7,579 nt of DNA from Escherichia coli (GCF_003334305.1 NZ_QOWS01000045.1), one strand, 5' to 3'; counted from the stretch's first letter, positions 1 to 6,838 are shown. Numbers and translations are program-made. Notes: generated from the sequence alone by a model not told the origin.

Positions 1-61
1 TTCATTAAGTCACCTGTTTTGTGTTGTGGTGAGAATATCACCTTTCATCAGGTGGCCAAAT

Positions 62-361
62 TTAGTGTGCCACTACACCCGGCAGATCGACCAGCGTCAG
101 GCTGCGTCCTCCAGCGTTCAGGGTAAAATGCAAAGGTTTACGTGTGCAGCCTTCTGCATGGCTGACTGGGCTGAGAGGATGTTCAAAAAGGGCATTGCAA
201 AGCGAGGATTTTCCGGCACCTGTTTTGCCCATGATGCCAATCACGGGTTCGTAATGAATACTCTGGCGTATATGCTCCAGAACCAAATCGGAGATATGTT
301 CAGGAAGAATGGATAAAGGTTGCTTCAGGACATTAATGCCCCGTTCAAAGGAATCAGACAT
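62..361 (-). CDS. YfjP/YkfA/YeeP-family (50S ribosome-binding-type) GTPase, N-terminal fragment only; probably truncated/pseudogene
   Basis: The 99-aa ORF has a canonical G1/P-loop GKTGAGKSS (nt 203..229) and a G3 DLPG motif (nt 77..88), then stops 4 codons later (LPGVVAH-stop at 62..64). No G4/G5 motifs are present and no other frame in nt 1..61 continues a GTPase. The start has a strong RBS (GGAGG 4 nt upstream of ATG 359..361). Similarity to island GTPases YfjP/YkfA is from memory. Confidence 0.55.
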
Positions 362-482
362 GTAGCCTCCGGAATGAAAAAAATTCGATACAGCAACTTC
401 GCTGCAATGTATTCATTGCGGTAATACAGGTCTGTTTTTTTTTGCATTCGAATTCCGGGGAGGAATGTGATTTTGTGGAGCA

Positions 483-2941: not shown

Positions 2942-2986
2942 GATTTCTCCTTTAAACAGAATTCCTGTGAAGACGGCAACTAGCCT

Positions 2987-5900
2987 TTATTCAAACCGTT
3001 GTTCCAATGCCTCATCTTCCAATCGCTCACGTTCTTTTTCCTTTTCAACCCAGTCAGTCAGTTTTTCATAAACAGCTCTAGCCGACTTAGAAATGTCTGC
3101 ACGCTCGTGGGTGACCAACTGGCCTATCGCTTCAACCCTAGGTTGCATCACGTTCGCACGACTACCGAACCATGATGAAGGTGCTACGTGTTCGGCAAAG
3201 ATCTCAAGGACGGCTCGTGGCTCGGGTGAGGCTTCTAGAAATCTCAGAGCATCATCCTGCAAGCAAATAGGACTTTGCTCCCCGTCTTTTGACCATAGAT
3301 TAATACCTGAAGCGACTGAAGCCCAAACCTGAGGGTCTTTAGTGGTCCTGCACCATTCAATCAAAATATCTACATCGATTTTCGCAATAGGAGACTGATG
3401 TGAATCATCATGATTGATGAAATGCAGCCGCCTCTGTTGTTGATCCTCCGTACCATCAAAAATGCGACTGAGAAATTCTTTTGGCATCCATGCAGCGGTG
3501 ATACCGATAGCGTCTTCGAAAGAATAAATGTAGCCAAAATGCTCATCAACAACAGCGAAGATTGTATTCAGCCATTCTAGCTTTTCAGCCTCGTTGCCAT
3601 CGAAGCGCAATGTGGCATCGATAACACGTTCCATTGCATAATCCAGATATCCGCCGAGATCGTTGTGATCTCTTTGGAACCTCTGGATTGCAGCGGATAT
3701 TCCGATTGTTCGTAGCGCAAGACCTAGTGTATCCGTAGCATCTCCTTTATCAGCTAGTTTCATACTCAGTGCTTCCAATACTACTTCATCACCATTCGGT
3801 TTACTCAGCAGCCTTTGAGCTAGCTCGAGGACCCTGCTTTCTGGCAAATTAGAGAATTGCTCACCCCACAGAATTGCCCCATACATATGGGGCTGTATGT
3901 CAGAGTCATCCAGAAGCGACATGCAACGATCCAGATCGATTTCAGTAAACTCCTGCCAAGGATGAAGGTTGACTAATTCGAATCGAAGTTCGGAATGTTG
4001 TGCACACTGATCGAGCAGTTCCTGCGCTAATGCTGAATCGATAGAATGAGTCTCTTCAATGAAACCTCGAATGACCGAAACATCACGTTGAGATTTGTGT
4101 TGTAGATCCAATTGAATGACTAGTTGTTGCCAATAAATTCGTAGGTCAGGAGCCCCGTTAGCTAAGCCTTTACCAAATTCGACGCGATACGGCATTCCAT
4201 CCCGCAAAAAAAGATTAGGGCACAACTCATCAAGTCCATGGGAAGATACTGCAAATTCGTGCCCCAACTTGAAAGCTTTGGCACAAAGTATTTTCCTGAT
4301 TTCACTGAATTTATTAGTTCCTTGGTGCTCATAATCAGCATCTAGAGCCCAAAAATCGCGCCTATTACTGAGTACATAAGCCATGATTGCCGAAACCAAG
4401 TCTTTAGGTTCTAATTCTCGTTCCAATGTCACAAGTATTTCCGGCAATGGTTCTACGTCTTCGTTATCTTTTCTTTTTGTATGGAAAAAGTAGATTGTTG
4501 AGCGGACAGCTTTCCAGCCTTCACCCCAAGGGCGATGGGCATGTAACTTACGAGCCGCATCAATTAATTTTGACCTTATTCCTCCATGACGCCAAATCCA
4601 GCGAAATTTATCAGCCAAGATCCGCCTGGCATCATCTTCAAGCTCGGGCACTCCTGAGGTTCCTAATCTCACCAAAATATCGATGAAGGCGAATAGCCAC
4701 GCAACAAGTTCATCGTAACTGGGTCGAAATCCATAATCTCTTGGCCTAGCACCAAACTCATTAATTCCGAATCCTGTCCACGGAGGTCCGCCGAGAGCAG
4801 TTTCAAGCATTTCGATCCCCATCCTTCTACGTTCGGCCATACTTGAATCAATGCATTCATTCATGATCGCAACACGTTGTTCTAAAGAGGCATGGGTACC
4901 GGATAGATAAGGTTGGAAAAACCTCTTTATCTTATTTCGAGCCGAATCATAATTATTGCTCGCGCTTTCCTGGTCTGCGATACGGATTAAGAGCTTAATG
5001 CATCGTTCAAAGTATTTCGATTCATATGCAAGTAACTGCAACAATTTGATAATTGCTGTTCGTTGTGGGTTGTAGCGTGATTTAAAATGCTCAAAATTAG
5101 ACGTAACAAGCGTTTCTTCAATCCTCTCAAGCAAAGCTCCTGGGGCAACTGGAGCGATATAATTTAGAATGCGTGTCGATACATCATCTAGGTCTATTAT
5201 TTTTCCAAGCAGCCCTTCGGGCTGTAACCAAGCTTCAACAATCTCTTTAGCCACAGCATGGCTATGCAATAGTCCCAACCTGTGCGCGAACGACATCAAT
5301 AATCGTTGCCGATCCGGAGCTTCAAAGGTCGTTCTAAGTTGATCAATCGGAATACTATTAAGTGCAGATGCTGCCAACTTGTTAGCAATGGCATGGGGAA
5401 GGATGGCTCTCCAGTGGGATCTTTTCTGAACAATGTGACGTTCCATCAACTTCGTAACAGCTTTGAATAACTGGATTTTGGGATACCCAGAGAGCACACC
5501 CAATATTTCCAGTTCATCGGTAGCTGCATCTGGACTAGATATCGAGAACGAATACACCAGTGACAATATTTCAGCTTGCTCCCGTAAATGGCCGTCGGGA
5601 TGATTACGTTGTTCAAACAAGCGATTAAACAACTGCGCATCTGAAAGTAGGGCTAAACTCTCACCTTCTTCCACTCTTTCCGCTATAGCCAAAGCCACTC
5701 TTGCATTCCCATCTGCGAACTCTGCAATCCGACGGGCATTATTCTGACCAATAGAAGGGAAGCGACGGATAAGAAGTTGCTCTGCCACGTCTGGACCATC
5801 TGTCTCAATGTGGATGACCTCAGTTGTCTGTGGTTTGTCATCCCTAATGTCGTACTCGATCGTGATGAGACTTACTTCTTTCCCTGCGGCTGATACTTTG

Positions 5901-6838
5901 CTGGCAAGCGAAGCATGGAGTTCTGATGGGCAATTATCAAGGATCATAATTGCTCGCCGGCCTTCAGCGAGCAGGTTATCAAGCATTGCTGTAGCCGACG
6001 GTACTGGCTCATAGCCAGTATCAACATAAATAGCTACTGTTCGGTCAAGCGCATCTGTTCCAACAGTTTCATCAAAGAGCGCCTGAACGATTCGAGTCTT
6101 CCCAACACCAGACAATCCTGTAATACGAACAGCCTTGTTTGTCGAACGGATCAGTGCTCGCATTGGGTTAATTGCTTCATCAATTTTGAGTTTTTGCCCC
6201 TTTCCCGATGGTAAAGTAATGGTTACGCCTGGGGCTGAGATTAAAGTGTCTATAACACCTTGTGGTGGATTGCTCCAGGCTCCGTAGGGTTGCCAACCGG
6301 AATACCCTTGCCCAAGCTTTGCTTTTACCCACAGCATGACTGATGGATGTTGGCGCAACCATTGGATGAGTTTGGAGCGGTCGTAGAAATCAAGATGAAG
6401 ATAACTTTCGTTAGGATCATCTTTTACTGCATCCCTCATCGCTTTGAGACGATCCTTCTTTCCTGACGGCGAGCAATCATCACCCAGGCTGACAATGATG
6501 TAACTGCCTTGCTTTCTGGCTTGTTCAGAAATGATGGGAGAAAGTGCTTTGCCGGTGCCAATTTCCCTCTCAATTGCAGACTTAGGCATCTTATGTTTCT
6601 TTGCCTGAAAGACCGTATCAGGTCTTACAAGAAAGCCTGCTTTCAGTTGATCAATTGGAACCTGAACATGGATGTCAATTCCTCCGTCAGGGGCTGTAAT
6701 TGAACCAGACCAATTTACACATGCTGGGCTATGGCCGTGCATTGCCACTTCAGCTTCTGCTAGCCGAGCGATCAGCTCTTCCAGCTGGATATCGGAGAGC
6801 CGAAGTAATTCGTCCTTTTCAATGTCAAAGATTGCCAC
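2987..6838 (-). CDS. Large multidomain defence-type protein: N-terminal Mrr-like PD-(D/E)xK nuclease domain + STAND/AAA+-type P-loop NTPase + long C-terminal helical (probable sensor) region; Avs-like antiviral STAND candidate
   Basis: A 1283-aa ORF with no internal stop. The Mrr-like signature is DGGID (aa 51-55, nt 6674..6688) plus QAK (aa 78-80, nt 6599..6607). Walker A GLSGVGKT is at aa 241-248 (nt 6095..6118), Walker B IMILDN around aa 297-302 (nt 5933..5950) and a GNAR lid/sensor-like motif at aa 377-380 (nt 5699..5710). The remaining roughly 850 aa are predominantly helical-looking sequence. The start is a GTG with an in-frame TAG 12 nt upstream and a weak SD, so the start codon is uncertain. 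Confidence 0.85.
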   Translation of the reverse strand: MAIFDIEKDELLRLSDIQLEELIARLAEAEVAMHGHSPACVNWSGSITAPDGGIDIHVQVPIDQLKAGFLVRPDTVFQAKKHKMPKSAIEREIGTGKALSPIISEQARKQGSYIIVSLGDDCSPSGKKDRLKAMRDAVKDDPNESYLHLDFYDRSKLIQWLRQHPSVMLWVKAKLGQGYSGWQPYGAWSNPPQGVIDTLISAPGVTITLPSGKGQKLKIDEAINPMRALIRSTNKAVRITGLSGVGKTRIVQALFDETVGTDALDRTVAIYVDTGYEPVPSATAMLDNLLAEGRRAIMILDNCPSELHASLASKVSAAGKEVSLITIEYDIRDDKPQTTEVIHIETDGPDVAEQLLIRRFPSIGQNNARRIAEFADGNARVALAIAERVEEGESLALLSDAQLFNRLFEQRNHPDGHLREQAEILSLVYSFSISSPDAATDELEILGVLSGYPKIQLFKAVTKLMERHIVQKRSHWRAILPHAIANKLAASALNSIPIDQLRTTFEAPDRQRLLMSFAHRLGLLHSHAVAKEIVEAWLQPEGLLGKIIDLDDVSTRILNYIAPVAPGALLERIEETLVTSNFEHFKSRYNPQRTAIIKLLQLLAYESKYFERCIKLLIRIADQESASNNYDSARNKIKRFFQPYLSGTHASLEQRVAIMNECIDSSMAERRRMGIEMLETALGGPPWTGFGINEFGARPRDYGFRPSYDELVAWLFAFIDILVRLGTSGVPELEDDARRILADKFRWIWRHGGIRSKLIDAARKLHAHRPWGEGWKAVRSTIYFFHTKRKDNEDVEPLPEILVTLERELEPKDLVSAIMAYVLSNRRDFWALDADYEHQGTNKFSEIRKILCAKAFKLGHEFAVSSHGLDELCPNLFLRDGMPYRVEFGKGLANGAPDLRIYWQQLVIQLDLQHKSQRDVSVIRGFIEETHSIDSALAQELLDQCAQHSELRFELVNLHPWQEFTEIDLDRCMSLLDDSDIQPHMYGAILWGEQFSNLPESRVLELAQRLLSKPNGDEVVLEALSMKLADKGDATDTLGLALRTIGISAAIQRFQRDHNDLGGYLDYAMERVIDATLRFDGNEAEKLEWLNTIFAVVDEHFGYIYSFEDAIGITAAWMPKEFLSRIFDGTEDQQQRRLHFINHDDSHQSPIAKIDVDILIEWCRTTKDPQVWASVASGINLWSKDGEQSPICLQDDALRFLEASPEPRAVLEIFAEHVAPSSWFGSRANVMQPRVEAIGQLVTHERADISKSARAVYEKLTDWVEKEKERERLEDEALEQRFE

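What the first reader, a model, noticed from the sequence alone, without database searches (positions are those of the whole stretch)
1..6838. Island context: alpA plus GTPase backbone bordering a variable cargo region
An AlpA-family regulator followed by a YfjP-like GTPase gene is, from memory, a recurring backbone arrangement in CP4-57/CP4-6-type integrative elements of Enterobacteriaceae. The segment between this backbone and the AT-rich region at 6839..7305 holds compositionally heterogeneous genes, as expected for an exchangeable defence-cargo slot. An integrase and att sites are not in this window.
Basis: inference. Interest (0 to 1): 0.5.

Follow-up and report, generated by a model that had tools for sequence, protein, structure and literature searches.

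The report
IS-eroded tmRNA-site island carrying Avs8

Summary
The window is E. coli chromosome and is 100% identical to strain A7. It lies between two different IS3-family elements. It contains the first 94 codons of a YfjP-like GTPase, an intact AlpA-family gene, a divergently transcribed YfjH-like gene, Avs8B (frameshifted), Avs8A (intact) and the first ~65 codons of a 1248-aa gene.

In ten genomes with an intact GTPase of this clade, five of which I examined, the same backbone sits at ssrA beside a full integrase. In those genomes, homology breaks inside alpA (window ~679) and resumes at the integrase stop codon. Between these points different genomes carry:
- Avs8 plus a 1248-aa gene
- Avs8 plus helicase/DUF2290
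- type IIG restriction-modification plus Lamassu
- two small genes only

So the "exchangeable defence cargo slot" reading is supported. Three corrections apply:
- The 293-aa gene is a backbone partner of alpA, not defence cargo.
- alpA directly next to the GTPase is specific to this clade. It is absent in K-12 CP4-57 and in seven other sampled islands.

In this lineage the integrase and the distal att site were lost to IS-associated deletions. Avs8 and the tmRNA hotspot are both published, so interest is low. One side observation: the Avs8B allele used in the published experiments is a truncated frameshift form.

The parts
1..77 (-). Terminal 77 bases of an IS3-family insertion sequence. This is the 5' end of the element as its transposase is transcribed, and includes the inverted repeat TGTAGTGG...
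   Evidence: ECOR29 and A7 annotate an IS3-family transposase ending at window base 5. The inverted repeats were read. Homology to the intact island starts at window 78. The junction is shared by 141 genomes.
78..361 (-). N-terminal 94 codons of a YfjP-family GTPase, covering the P-loop to the DxxG motif. It is a pseudogene; the open frame runs on into the IS to a stop at 62.
   Evidence: BLASTP against K-12 YfjP: 61% identity, E 4e-34. The full-length 294-aa orthologue has an MMR_HSR1 domain at 41-156. RefSeq annotates it as incomplete.
527..766 (-). AlpA-family helix-turn-helix regulator or excisionase, 79 aa, intact. The homology breakpoint with other island variants falls at about base 679 (codon 29).
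   Evidence: Pfam PF05930, E 3.4e-21. PHROG 'excisionase and transcriptional regulator'. 61% identical to K-12 AlpA. Breakpoint.
767..879 (.). Divergent intergenic region between alpA and the YfjH-like gene, with promoter-like sites at 807-853 on the + strand.
   Evidence: The consensus matches are no more frequent than in shuffled sequence, so this is positional inference only.
880..1761 (+). 293-aa AT-rich gene, a diverged YfjH-like protein. It is the conserved divergent partner of alpA in all ssrA-island variants examined. Its function is unknown.
   Evidence: BLASTP E 2e-6 against K-12 YfjH and 3e-10 against the 240-aa protein of 1604D011/A3. Those two match phrog_19089. No Pfam, NCBIfam or PADLOC hit.
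1991..2027 (-). Intrinsic-terminator-like hairpin, a 12-bp perfect stem followed by a U-rich tail, ending the Avs8AB operon.
   Evidence: Fold energy -20.9 kcal/mol, z -4.8, with 0 of 200 shuffles as stable.
2029..2941 (-). Avs8B (PD-Lambda-4_B), disrupted by a +1 frameshift in an A6 run at 2213..2218. RefSeq annotates it as 248 aa (2195..2941) plus 51 aa (2029..2184).
   Evidence: PADLOC PD-Lambda-4_B matches profile positions 1-245 of 303. Removing one A gives 303 aa matching 1-303. The A5 form is seen in RMDEC465, R32_14_1F and FEX669. Homologues are about 303 aa across Enterobacterales and Pseudomonas.
2987..6838 (-). Avs8A (PD-Lambda-4_A), 1283 aa, intact. It is a STAND NTPase with an N-terminal Mrr-type nuclease and senses HK97-fold major capsid proteins.
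   Evidence: PADLOC full-length match 1-1283/1283, E 0. Window 1..7320 is identical to ECOR29, where this CDS is WP_000963924.1. That is the accession given for ECOR07 Avs8A in bioRxiv 10.1101/2025.07.02.662641.
6839..7305 (.). AT-rich (32% GC) divergent intergenic region. A second module junction lies at about 7023; to its right RMDEC465 and FEX669 carry helicase+DUF2290 instead.
7306..7500 (+). First ~65 codons of a 1248-aa gene of unknown function (phrog_18693). It is cut by IS3 and also frameshifted in this window by an extra A at 7317-7321.
   Evidence: Window 78..7503 aligns to R32_14_1F, where the gene is whole. Full-length phrog_18693 match.
7501..7579 (+). Left end of IS3, with inverted repeat TGATCTTACCCAGCAATAGTGGACAC... 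and the start of its first ORF at 7567/7568.
   Evidence: The junction is shared by 80 genomes.

Best explanation
The window is the surviving middle of a CP4-57-type integrative island that entered at the 3' end of ssrA (tmRNA).

**Intact form (strain R32_14_1F).** The gene order is: ssrA, integrase, 1248-aa gene, Avs8A, Avs8B, YfjH-like gene (divergent), alpA, GTPase, HTH regulator, two hypothetical genes, HTH, YfjI, Gp2-family gene, DUF932, RadC, DUF987, YeeU/CbtA, ypjA.

**The slot.** The stretch between the integrase stop codon and the 5' third of alpA is a replaceable cargo slot, and it contains a second, integrase-proximal sub-slot. I infer that related islands exchange its contents by homologous recombination, using the conserved integrase and alpA/GTPase flanks as anchors.

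**The cargo.** Here the slot carries Avs8 (PD-lambda-4). From published work: Avs8A binds HK97-fold major capsid protein of an infecting phage, is modelled to form a tetramer, and is proposed to activate its N-terminal effector (Mrr-type nuclease) domain to halt virion production; it blocks lambda and several BASEL phages.

**Decay in this lineage.** The island can no longer move.
- An IS3-family element removed about 13 kb, from codon 95 of the GTPase to inside ypjA, including the degenerate attR.
- IS3 removed about 3.8 kb, comprising most of the 1248-aa gene and the 3' end of the integrase.
- In strain A7, the only record identical to the whole window, a P2-like prophage remnant lies between that IS3 and ssrA.

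Avs8A remains intact and is presumably functional. Avs8B is frameshifted.
For: **Location**
- The window is 100% identical to strain A7. 130 of 5426 complete E. coli genomes hold at least 80% of it, all on chromosomes.
- In ECOR29, ssrA and an integrase fragment flank the window on the right, and ypjA'/ileY on the left.
- In A7, ssrA lies 24 kb to the right, beyond a P2-like prophage remnant.

**Intact relatives and breakpoints**
- Intact or near-intact islands were read.
- Window 78..7503 equals R32_14_1F 14602..22024 at 99.6% identity.
- The left IS junction is in 141 genomes and the right one in 80. Neither IS is flanked by a target-site duplication.

**Slot exchange**
- R32_14_1F compared with A3 and 1604D011 keeps 93-97% identity up to island position 15178 (window ~679) and again from the integrase stop codon. 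Nothing aligns between.
- PADLOC identifies the alternative cargo:
  - type IIG RM plus LmuA/LmuB in A3
  - Helicase+DUF2290 in RMDEC465/FEX669
  - GajA/GajB plus a TIR protein in CU42ET-1
- K-12 carries AbpAB and RnlAB.

**Cargo identity**
- PADLOC E 0 over the full length for Avs8A.
- The accessions are identical to the tested ECOR07 Avs8A and Avs8B.
- Avs8A homologues occur on plasmids of many genera.

**Published hotspot**
- The tmRNA locus is hotspot #9 of the E. coli defence-island survey (PMC10121019).
Against: - No exact direct repeat of 12 bases or more matching the ssrA 3' end was found in ECOR29 or RMDEC465. attR is only a degenerate 11-12-base remnant in relatives and is absent here. 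Excision competence is therefore not shown for any variant.
- The exchange mechanism (homologous recombination on the flanks) is inferred from breakpoint positions, not observed.
- This alpA/GTPase allele is almost always linked to Avs8: about 148 of 159 genomes. Within this exact allele the cargo is stable. The replaced-cargo examples come from flanks that are 93-98% identical, not from identical ones.
- Only ten genomes carry an intact GTPase of this clade, so the number of slot variants is small.
- Avs8 activity in this strain was not tested.
Confidence: 0.9

Rival explanations
1. The segment is a composite transposon. The two flanking IS3-family elements mobilised the Avs8 region as a unit, and its position near ssrA is secondary.
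For: The window is bounded on both sides by IS3-family elements in inverted orientation. In A7 and NWU_4 the DNA beyond the right-hand IS3 differs from ECOR29.
Against: - The two IS elements are different, with no significant similarity.
- Neither has a target-site duplication.
- The enclosed DNA is collinear and 99.6% identical with the IS-free island at the same chromosomal site.
- Strain C5 has the left IS but not the right one.
- All matches covering at least 80% of the window are chromosomal.
Confidence: 0.03
2. The 293-aa gene at 880..1761 is part of the Avs8 cargo, as an accessory or regulator of the defence system, rather than a backbone gene.
For: - It is inside the block that is exchanged, since the homology break is at ~679.
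- It accompanies Avs8 in every Avs8-bearing island seen.
- Its GC content (0.33) differs from the backbone.
- It has no family assignment.
Against: - It shares a C-terminal ~150-aa region with K-12 YfjH and with the 240-aa proteins of A3 and 1604D011 (E 2e-6 to 3e-10).
- A YfjH-like gene sits divergently next to alpA in all seven ssrA-island variants examined, whatever the cargo.
- Avs8B-bearing loci in Salmonella, Serratia and Pseudomonas show no match to it.
Confidence: 0.12
3. The element is still an active integrative or satellite element (P4-like) able to excise and transfer in this strain.
For: alpA is intact. Relatives keep a full integrase next to ssrA.
Against: - In ECOR29-type genomes the integrase lacks its C-terminus. 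In A7 it is absent within the 24 kb between the window and ssrA.
- The attR side is deleted.
- No P4 psu/delta/sid-type genes appear in the annotated backbone.
Confidence: 0.03

Closest known systems
Cryptic prophage CP4-57 of E. coli K-12 (ssrA-intA-yfjH-alpA-yfjI-yfjJ-abpBA-yfjM-rnlAB-yfjP...)
   Same: - Same chromosomal site, between ssrA and ypjA/ileY.
- Related integrase: about 81% nucleotide identity over the aligned 75% of the gene; the int-ssrA-smpB region as a whole aligns at 89%.
- Divergent yfjH-alpA pair.
- YfjP-family GTPase followed by DUF932.
- Defence genes in the variable part.
   Different: - Gene order differs. In K-12 the block int-yfjH-alpA-yfjI-yfjJ is contiguous and cargo lies between yfjJ and the GTPase. 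Here cargo lies between the integrase and yfjH-like/alpA, alpA abuts the GTPase, and yfjI/Gp2 lie downstream in inverted orientation.
- Proteins are only 61% (AlpA, GTPase) or 26% (YfjH) identical.
E. coli defence hotspot #9 at the tmRNA locus (Hochhauser, Millman and Sorek 2023, PMC10121019)
   Same: Same locus. It is described as being occupied by different mobile elements carrying defence systems.
   Different: That survey treats the whole locus as one hotspot. Here the exchange is resolved to a slot inside one island family, with breakpoints in alpA and at the integrase stop codon.
PD-lambda-4 / Avs8 (Vassallo et al. 2022, PMC9519451; bioRxiv 10.1101/2025.07.02.662641; bioRxiv 10.64898/2026.01.04.697583)
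   Same: Avs8A and Avs8B here carry the same RefSeq protein accessions as the ECOR07 system that was tested. Avs8A matches the PADLOC profile over its full length.
   Different: Nothing differs in sequence. However, this allele's Avs8B is a frameshifted 248-aa form of a 303-aa protein, which those papers do not mention in the passages read.
Defence hotspots of P4-like satellites and P2 prophages (Rousset et al. 2022; recalled from memory, not read here)
   Same: A variable defence locus lies within an integrase-bearing element, while the backbone is conserved.
   Different: No P4 capsid-hijacking genes are annotated in this backbone, so membership as a satellite is not supported.

Membership tests
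CP4-57-type ssrA integrative island | Located at the 3' end of ssrA (tmRNA) | tested here: met
   ssrA is adjacent to the integrase in ECOR29, RMDEC465, 1604D011, R32_14_1F and A3. In A7 it lies 24 kb away, beyond a P2-like prophage remnant.
CP4-57-type ssrA integrative island | Tyrosine integrase next to the attachment site | tested here: met
   It is intact (1242 nt) in relatives. In this lineage it is truncated (ECOR29) or absent (A7). It is not in the window itself.
CP4-57-type ssrA integrative island | AlpA-family regulator with a divergent YfjH-like gene | tested here: met
   Pfam PF05930, E 3.4e-21. YfjH-like homology is weak but reciprocal.
CP4-57-type ssrA integrative island | YfjP-family GTPase followed by the DUF932 / RadC / DUF987 / YeeU-CbtA module | tested here: met
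   The full module is present in relatives. In the window only 94 codons of the GTPase remain.
CP4-57-type ssrA integrative island | Direct att repeats derived from the ssrA 3' end | tested here: inconclusive
   A degenerate copy (ACTCCGCCAGCC) is present near ypjA in K-12 and RMDEC465. There are no exact repeats of 12 bases or more. The attR side is deleted in ECOR29-type genomes.
Avs8 / PD-Lambda-4 defence system | Avs8A: about 1283 aa matching the family profile end to end | tested here: met
   PADLOC PDLC03991, positions 1-1283/1283, E 0. Same accession as the tested ECOR07 protein.
Avs8 / PD-Lambda-4 defence system | Mrr-type nuclease plus STAND NTPase domains in Avs8A | tested here: inconclusive
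   Pfam gives only weak P-loop hits at 232-276 (AAA_16, E 0.02). There is no PDB sequence relative. The domain assignment is taken from the literature.
Avs8 / PD-Lambda-4 defence system | Full-length Avs8B (about 303 aa) downstream of Avs8A | tested here: not met
   A frameshift in the A6 run at 2213..2218 leaves 248 aa. Avs8B was reported as dispensable for lambda defence, so this does not exclude Avs8 function.
Avs8 / PD-Lambda-4 defence system | Protection against phage triggered by HK97-fold capsid protein | not testable with these tools
   Shown experimentally for the identical ECOR07 proteins in the cited preprints.
Exchangeable defence cargo slot (hotspot) | Same conserved flanks with different defence systems between them | tested here: met
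   Breakpoints. Cargo identified by PADLOC.
Composite transposon | Two copies of one IS with a shared target-site duplication | tested here: not met
   The two IS elements are unrelated in sequence and have no duplications.

The most novel reading that the evidence does not exclude
Avs8B is not a dispensable passenger. The allele used in the published dissection (WP_000443183.1, 248 aa) is a frameshifted remnant of a conserved 303-aa protein. The full-length form is retained across Enterobacterales and Pseudomonas. It persists where Avs8A has been replaced (Salmonella, by QatABCD), truncated (Serratia) or is absent (Pseudomonas). It may therefore have its own function, in defence, regulation or mobile-element biology, that experiments with the truncated allele could not reveal.
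Probability: 0.25. Interest if true: 0.45.

Novelty: already known. Interest (0 to 1): 0.2.

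Why it matters
This is mainly a sanity check. A tool-free reading of raw sequence correctly recognised an island backbone and a defence cargo slot. The locus (the tmRNA hotspot), the island type (CP4-57-like) and the cargo (Avs8/PD-lambda-4) are all described already.

The useful additions are practical:
- The slot boundaries are precise (inside alpA and at the integrase stop codon), and there is a nested integrase-proximal sub-slot. These could be used as anchors to mine further cargo.
- The widespread E. coli Avs8B allele, including the one tested experimentally, is truncated.
- An uncharacterised 1248-aa gene (phrog_18693) occupies the sub-slot where other strains carry known or candidate defence systems.

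Tried and rejected
- **att repeats.** An exact 12-mer search for repeats of the ssrA 3' end in ECOR29 and RMDEC465 found none. Only a degenerate copy turned up on reading the sequence.
- **The 293-aa protein.** Pfam, NCBIfam, PADLOC and PHROGs gave no hit. Only pairwise BLASTP linked it to YfjH.
- **The 1248-aa protein.** Pfam, PDB sequence search, NCBIfam and PADLOC gave nothing apart from a PHROG of unknown function.
- **Avs8A.** Pfam gave only weak P-loop hits and PDB gave none.
- **RNA genes.** Rfam and tRNA/tmRNA scans of the window found nothing.
- **Promoters and terminators.** The consensus scan found no more sites than in shuffled sequence.
- **Phage genomes.** tblastn of Avs8A against deposited phage genomes found no match.
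- **Vassallo supplement.** It did not give the source strain or the length of PD-lambda-4B.
- **Rejected ideas.**
  - Composite transposon: different IS elements, no duplications, and collinear with the intact island.
  - Core-genome region: present in only about 3% of genomes.
  - Programmed frameshifting in Avs8B: the shift needed is +1, homologues in other taxa are simply in frame, and nothing supports recoding. Low-level slippage on the A6 run cannot be excluded.

Full report
**What is in the window**

Six-frame ORF listing and composition, with annotation of identical genomes, give this map:

| Window coordinates | Strand | Feature |
|---|---|---|
| 1..77 | - | End of an IS3-family element |
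| 78..361 | - | First 94 codons of a YfjP-like GTPase |
| 527..766 | - | AlpA-family gene |
| 880..1761 | + | AT-rich 293-aa gene |
| 1991..2027 | - | Terminator hairpin |
| 2029..2941 | - | Avs8B, split by a frameshift |
| 2987..6838 | - | Avs8A, 1283 aa |
| 6839..7305 | . | 32%-GC intergenic region |
| 7306..7500 | + | Start of a 1248-aa gene |
| 7501..7579 | + | Left end of IS3 |

There are no tRNA, tmRNA or Rfam matches. The whole window has 42.5% GC, below what I recall for the E. coli chromosome (about 51%, from memory).

**Checking the observation**

- AlpA is confirmed: Pfam PF05930, E 3.4e-21, and 61% identity to K-12 AlpA.
- The GTPase is confirmed only as a fragment. It is 61% identical to YfjP residues 10-94. 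The intact orthologue has 294 aa with an MMR_HSR1 domain at 41-156.
- The ORF that appears to end at 62 finishes inside IS sequence. Homology to the IS-free island begins at base 78.

**Genomic context**

The window is 100% identical to E. coli strain A7, and 130 of 5426 complete genomes hold at least 80% of it, always on the chromosome.

- In ECOR29 the order is: ileY, ypjCB, ypjA fragment, IS3-family element, [window], IS3, integrase fragment lacking its C-terminus, ssrA, smpB. This is the CP4-57 site of K-12.
- In A7 the right-hand IS3 is followed by a DUF4145 gene and the late genes of a P2-like prophage. ssrA follows 24 kb away, and no integrase of the island survives.
- In NWU_4 the matching integrase lies 2.5 Mb away, next to yghU. 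I did not resolve that rearrangement.

**The intact island and how this lineage decayed**

Only ten genomes have an intact GTPase of this clade. R32_14_1F shows the full element. Its gene order is: ssrA, integrase, 1248-aa gene, Avs8A, Avs8B (303 aa), YfjH-like gene, alpA, GTPase, HTH, two hypothetical genes, HTH, YfjI, Gp2-family gene, DUF932, RadC, DUF987, YeeU, CbtA, ypjA.

Window 78..7503 aligns to it at 99.6% identity. Relative to it, the ECOR29-type lineage lacks two stretches:
- About 13 kb on the left, from GTPase codon 95 to inside ypjA.
- About 3.8 kb on the right, comprising most of the 1248-aa gene and the last ~137 bases of the integrase.

Each gap is replaced by an IS. The two IS elements are unrelated in sequence, and neither is flanked by a target duplication. 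That fits IS-associated deletion rather than simple insertion or composite transposition.

The left junction is present in 141 genomes and the right one in 80. Strain C5 has the left IS but not the right, so the left deletion is likely the older of the two.

The ssrA-derived attR is only a degenerate remnant in K-12 and RMDEC465. It lies within the part deleted here.

**Is the slot exchangeable?**

Yes. In comparisons with R32_14_1F:
- A3 and 1604D011 keep 93-97% identity through the backbone up to island position 15178. That corresponds to window ~679, codon 29 of alpA.
- Identity resumes exactly at the integrase stop codon. Nothing aligns between.
- RMDEC465 and FEX669 share the Avs8 block but diverge between window ~7023 and the integrase. 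This defines an integrase-proximal sub-slot.

| Genome(s) | Slot contents (integrase side first) |
|---|---|
| R32_14_1F, C5 | 1248-aa gene + Avs8AB |
| RMDEC465, FEX669 | PADLOC Helicase + DUF2290, then Avs8AB |
| A3 | Lamassu LmuA/LmuB + type IIG restriction-modification |
| 1604D011 | Integrase fragment and a 188-aa gene only |

In islands with the K-12 gene order, the cargo lies between yfjJ and the GTPase instead:

| Genome | Cargo |
|---|---|
| K-12 | AbpAB and RnlAB |
| CU42ET-1 | Gabija plus a TIR protein |
| SF10 | Type I restriction |
| ET479 | srfABC and tellurite-resistance-like genes |

The tmRNA locus is already listed as defence hotspot #9 in E. coli (PMC10121019).

1. The 293-aa gene is not defence cargo in the usual sense. 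Its C-terminal ~150 residues match K-12 YfjH (E 2e-6) and the 240-aa proteins of A3 and 1604D011 (E 3e-10). Those in turn match phrog_19089, together with YfjH. A YfjH-like gene sits divergently beside alpA in all seven ssrA-island variants examined.
2. The variable block is wider than 880..6838 on both sides.
3. alpA immediately upstream of the GTPase is specific to this clade.
   - In K-12, CU42ET-1, ET479 and SF10, alpA is next to the integrase and several kb from the GTPase.
   - Four paralogous GTPase islands sampled at random have a different divergent gene there and no alpA.
4. This exact alpA/GTPase allele is almost always linked to Avs8. The replaced-cargo evidence therefore comes from flanks that are 93-98% identical, not from identical ones.

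**The cargo**

PADLOC matches the 1283-aa protein to PD-Lambda-4_A end to end (E 0) and the 248-aa protein to PD-Lambda-4_B.

Window 1..7320 is identical to ECOR29. The ECOR29 CDSs there are WP_000963924.1 and WP_000443183.1. These are the accessions given for ECOR07 Avs8A and Avs8B in bioRxiv 10.1101/2025.07.02.662641.

That preprint and bioRxiv 10.64898/2026.01.04.697583 report the following:
- Avs8A is a STAND NTPase with an Mrr nuclease domain.
- It is modelled as a tetramer.
- It protects against lambda and several BASEL phages.
- Avs8B is dispensable.

My own domain checks add little. Pfam sees only a weak P-loop, and there is no PDB relative by sequence. Full-length Avs8A homologues occur on plasmids of many genera but in no deposited phage genome. 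That is consistent with mobile cargo.

**Side finding on Avs8B**

- The PADLOC profile has 303 positions, and the window protein covers 1-245.
- Alignment with RMDEC465 shows an A6 run at 2213..2218 where RMDEC465 has A5.
- Removing one A yields a 303-aa protein that matches the profile 1-303.
- R32_14_1F and FEX669 annotate a 912-nt gene.
- Homologues down to 38% identity in Enterobacterales and Pseudomonas are about 300-305 aa and cover the whole query. The 248-aa form is one cluster of 470 sequences.
- Of the 148 complete genomes that match this stretch, at least 57 of the 60 listed are identical to the window, i.e. carry the A6 allele.

So the allele tested as "dispensable" is a truncated one.

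B homologues also persist without an intact Avs8A:
- In Salmonella, B lies beside QatABCD, with only a remnant of the Avs8A N-terminus left.
- In Serratia, Avs8A is cut by an IS.
- In Pseudomonas, B stands alone.

**Mechanism, shown versus inferred**

Shown here:
- The location, the gene content and the deletions.
- The slot breakpoints.
- The identity of the alternative cargo by profile match.

Taken from the literature:
- The mode of action of Avs8.
- From memory (Kirby, Trempy and Gottesman 1994, not read here): AlpA raises integrase expression and drives CP4-57 excision.

Inferred:
- Cargo is exchanged by homologous recombination on the integrase and alpA/GTPase flanks.
- The island in this lineage is immobile.
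- Avs8A is still active.

**Verdict**

The finding is correct in substance and ordinary in content. It is a known kind of island at a known hotspot, carrying a known defence system, here in an IS-eroded state.

Noticed in passing
window 2213..2218 (within 2029..2941, - strand): Avs8B carries a +1 frameshift in an A6 run, giving 248 aa instead of 303 aa. This truncated allele (WP_000443183.1) predominates in E. coli: at least 57 of the 60 listed genomes, out of 148 with this stretch, are identical to the window here. It is also the allele reported as dispensable in the Avs8 preprint.
   Followed up: yes
L013/L014 10001-10915 (Salmonella), L015/L016 (Serratia), L017 (Pseudomonas): Full-length Avs8B homologues persist without an intact Avs8A. 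In Salmonella, QatABCD sits where Avs8A should be, with a short Avs8A N-terminal remnant upstream. In Serratia, Avs8A is cut by an IS3-family element. In Pseudomonas there is no Avs8A within 10 kb.
   Followed up: partly
window 7306..7500; whole gene at L006 21828-25574 and L005 22122-25868: This is a fragment of a 1248-aa gene (full-length match to phrog_18693, unknown function; no Pfam, PADLOC, NCBIfam or PDB hit). The gene occupies the integrase-proximal sub-slot where other strains carry helicase+DUF2290 or Lamassu, so it is a candidate uncharacterised defence gene. In this window it also has an extra A at 7317-7321 compared with ECOR29.
   Followed up: partly
window 1..77 and 7501..7579; L001 18794-20077 and 27501-28758: The two flanking IS3-family elements are unrelated to each other and lack target-site duplications. 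They mark deletions of about 13 kb and 3.8 kb relative to the intact island. The left junction is in 141 genomes and the right one in 80.
   Followed up: yes
L023 (strain A7) 20268-44916: In the only record identical to the whole window, a P2-like prophage remnant lies between the right-hand IS3 and ssrA. It has late genes only, plus a reverse-transcriptase-domain gene next to ssrA and a DUF4145 gene next to the portal gene. The mobile elements are stacked in tandem at ssrA, and the prophage's early region is missing.
   Followed up: partly
L021 (strain NWU_4) 6610-10242: The matching intact integrase, and what looks like the C-terminal 750 aa of the 1248-aa gene, lie next to yghU, 2.5 Mb from the window segment. 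This suggests a large chromosomal rearrangement with a breakpoint in that gene.
   Followed up: partly
window ~679 (codon 29 of alpA) and ~7023: There are sharp homology breakpoints between island variants. One lies inside the alpA coding region, so the N-terminal third of AlpA and its promoter travel with the cargo. The other lies in the AT-rich intergenic region upstream of Avs8A.
   Followed up: yes
window 389..406 (- strand): The only terminator-like site found by the consensus scan lies between alpA and the GTPase start. It could attenuate read-through from alpA into the GTPase operon.
   Followed up: no
L008 (strain A3) 5476-7200: At the distal end of the same backbone, a retron Ec67-type reverse transcriptase/endonuclease replaces the RadC-DUF987-YeeU-CbtA module. 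This points to a second variable position in the island.
   Followed up: no
window 527..766: This AlpA has a 14-residue N-terminal extension (79 aa) compared with the 65-aa form in A3 and 1604D011 and the 70-aa K-12 protein. The true start codon was not examined.
   Followed up: no
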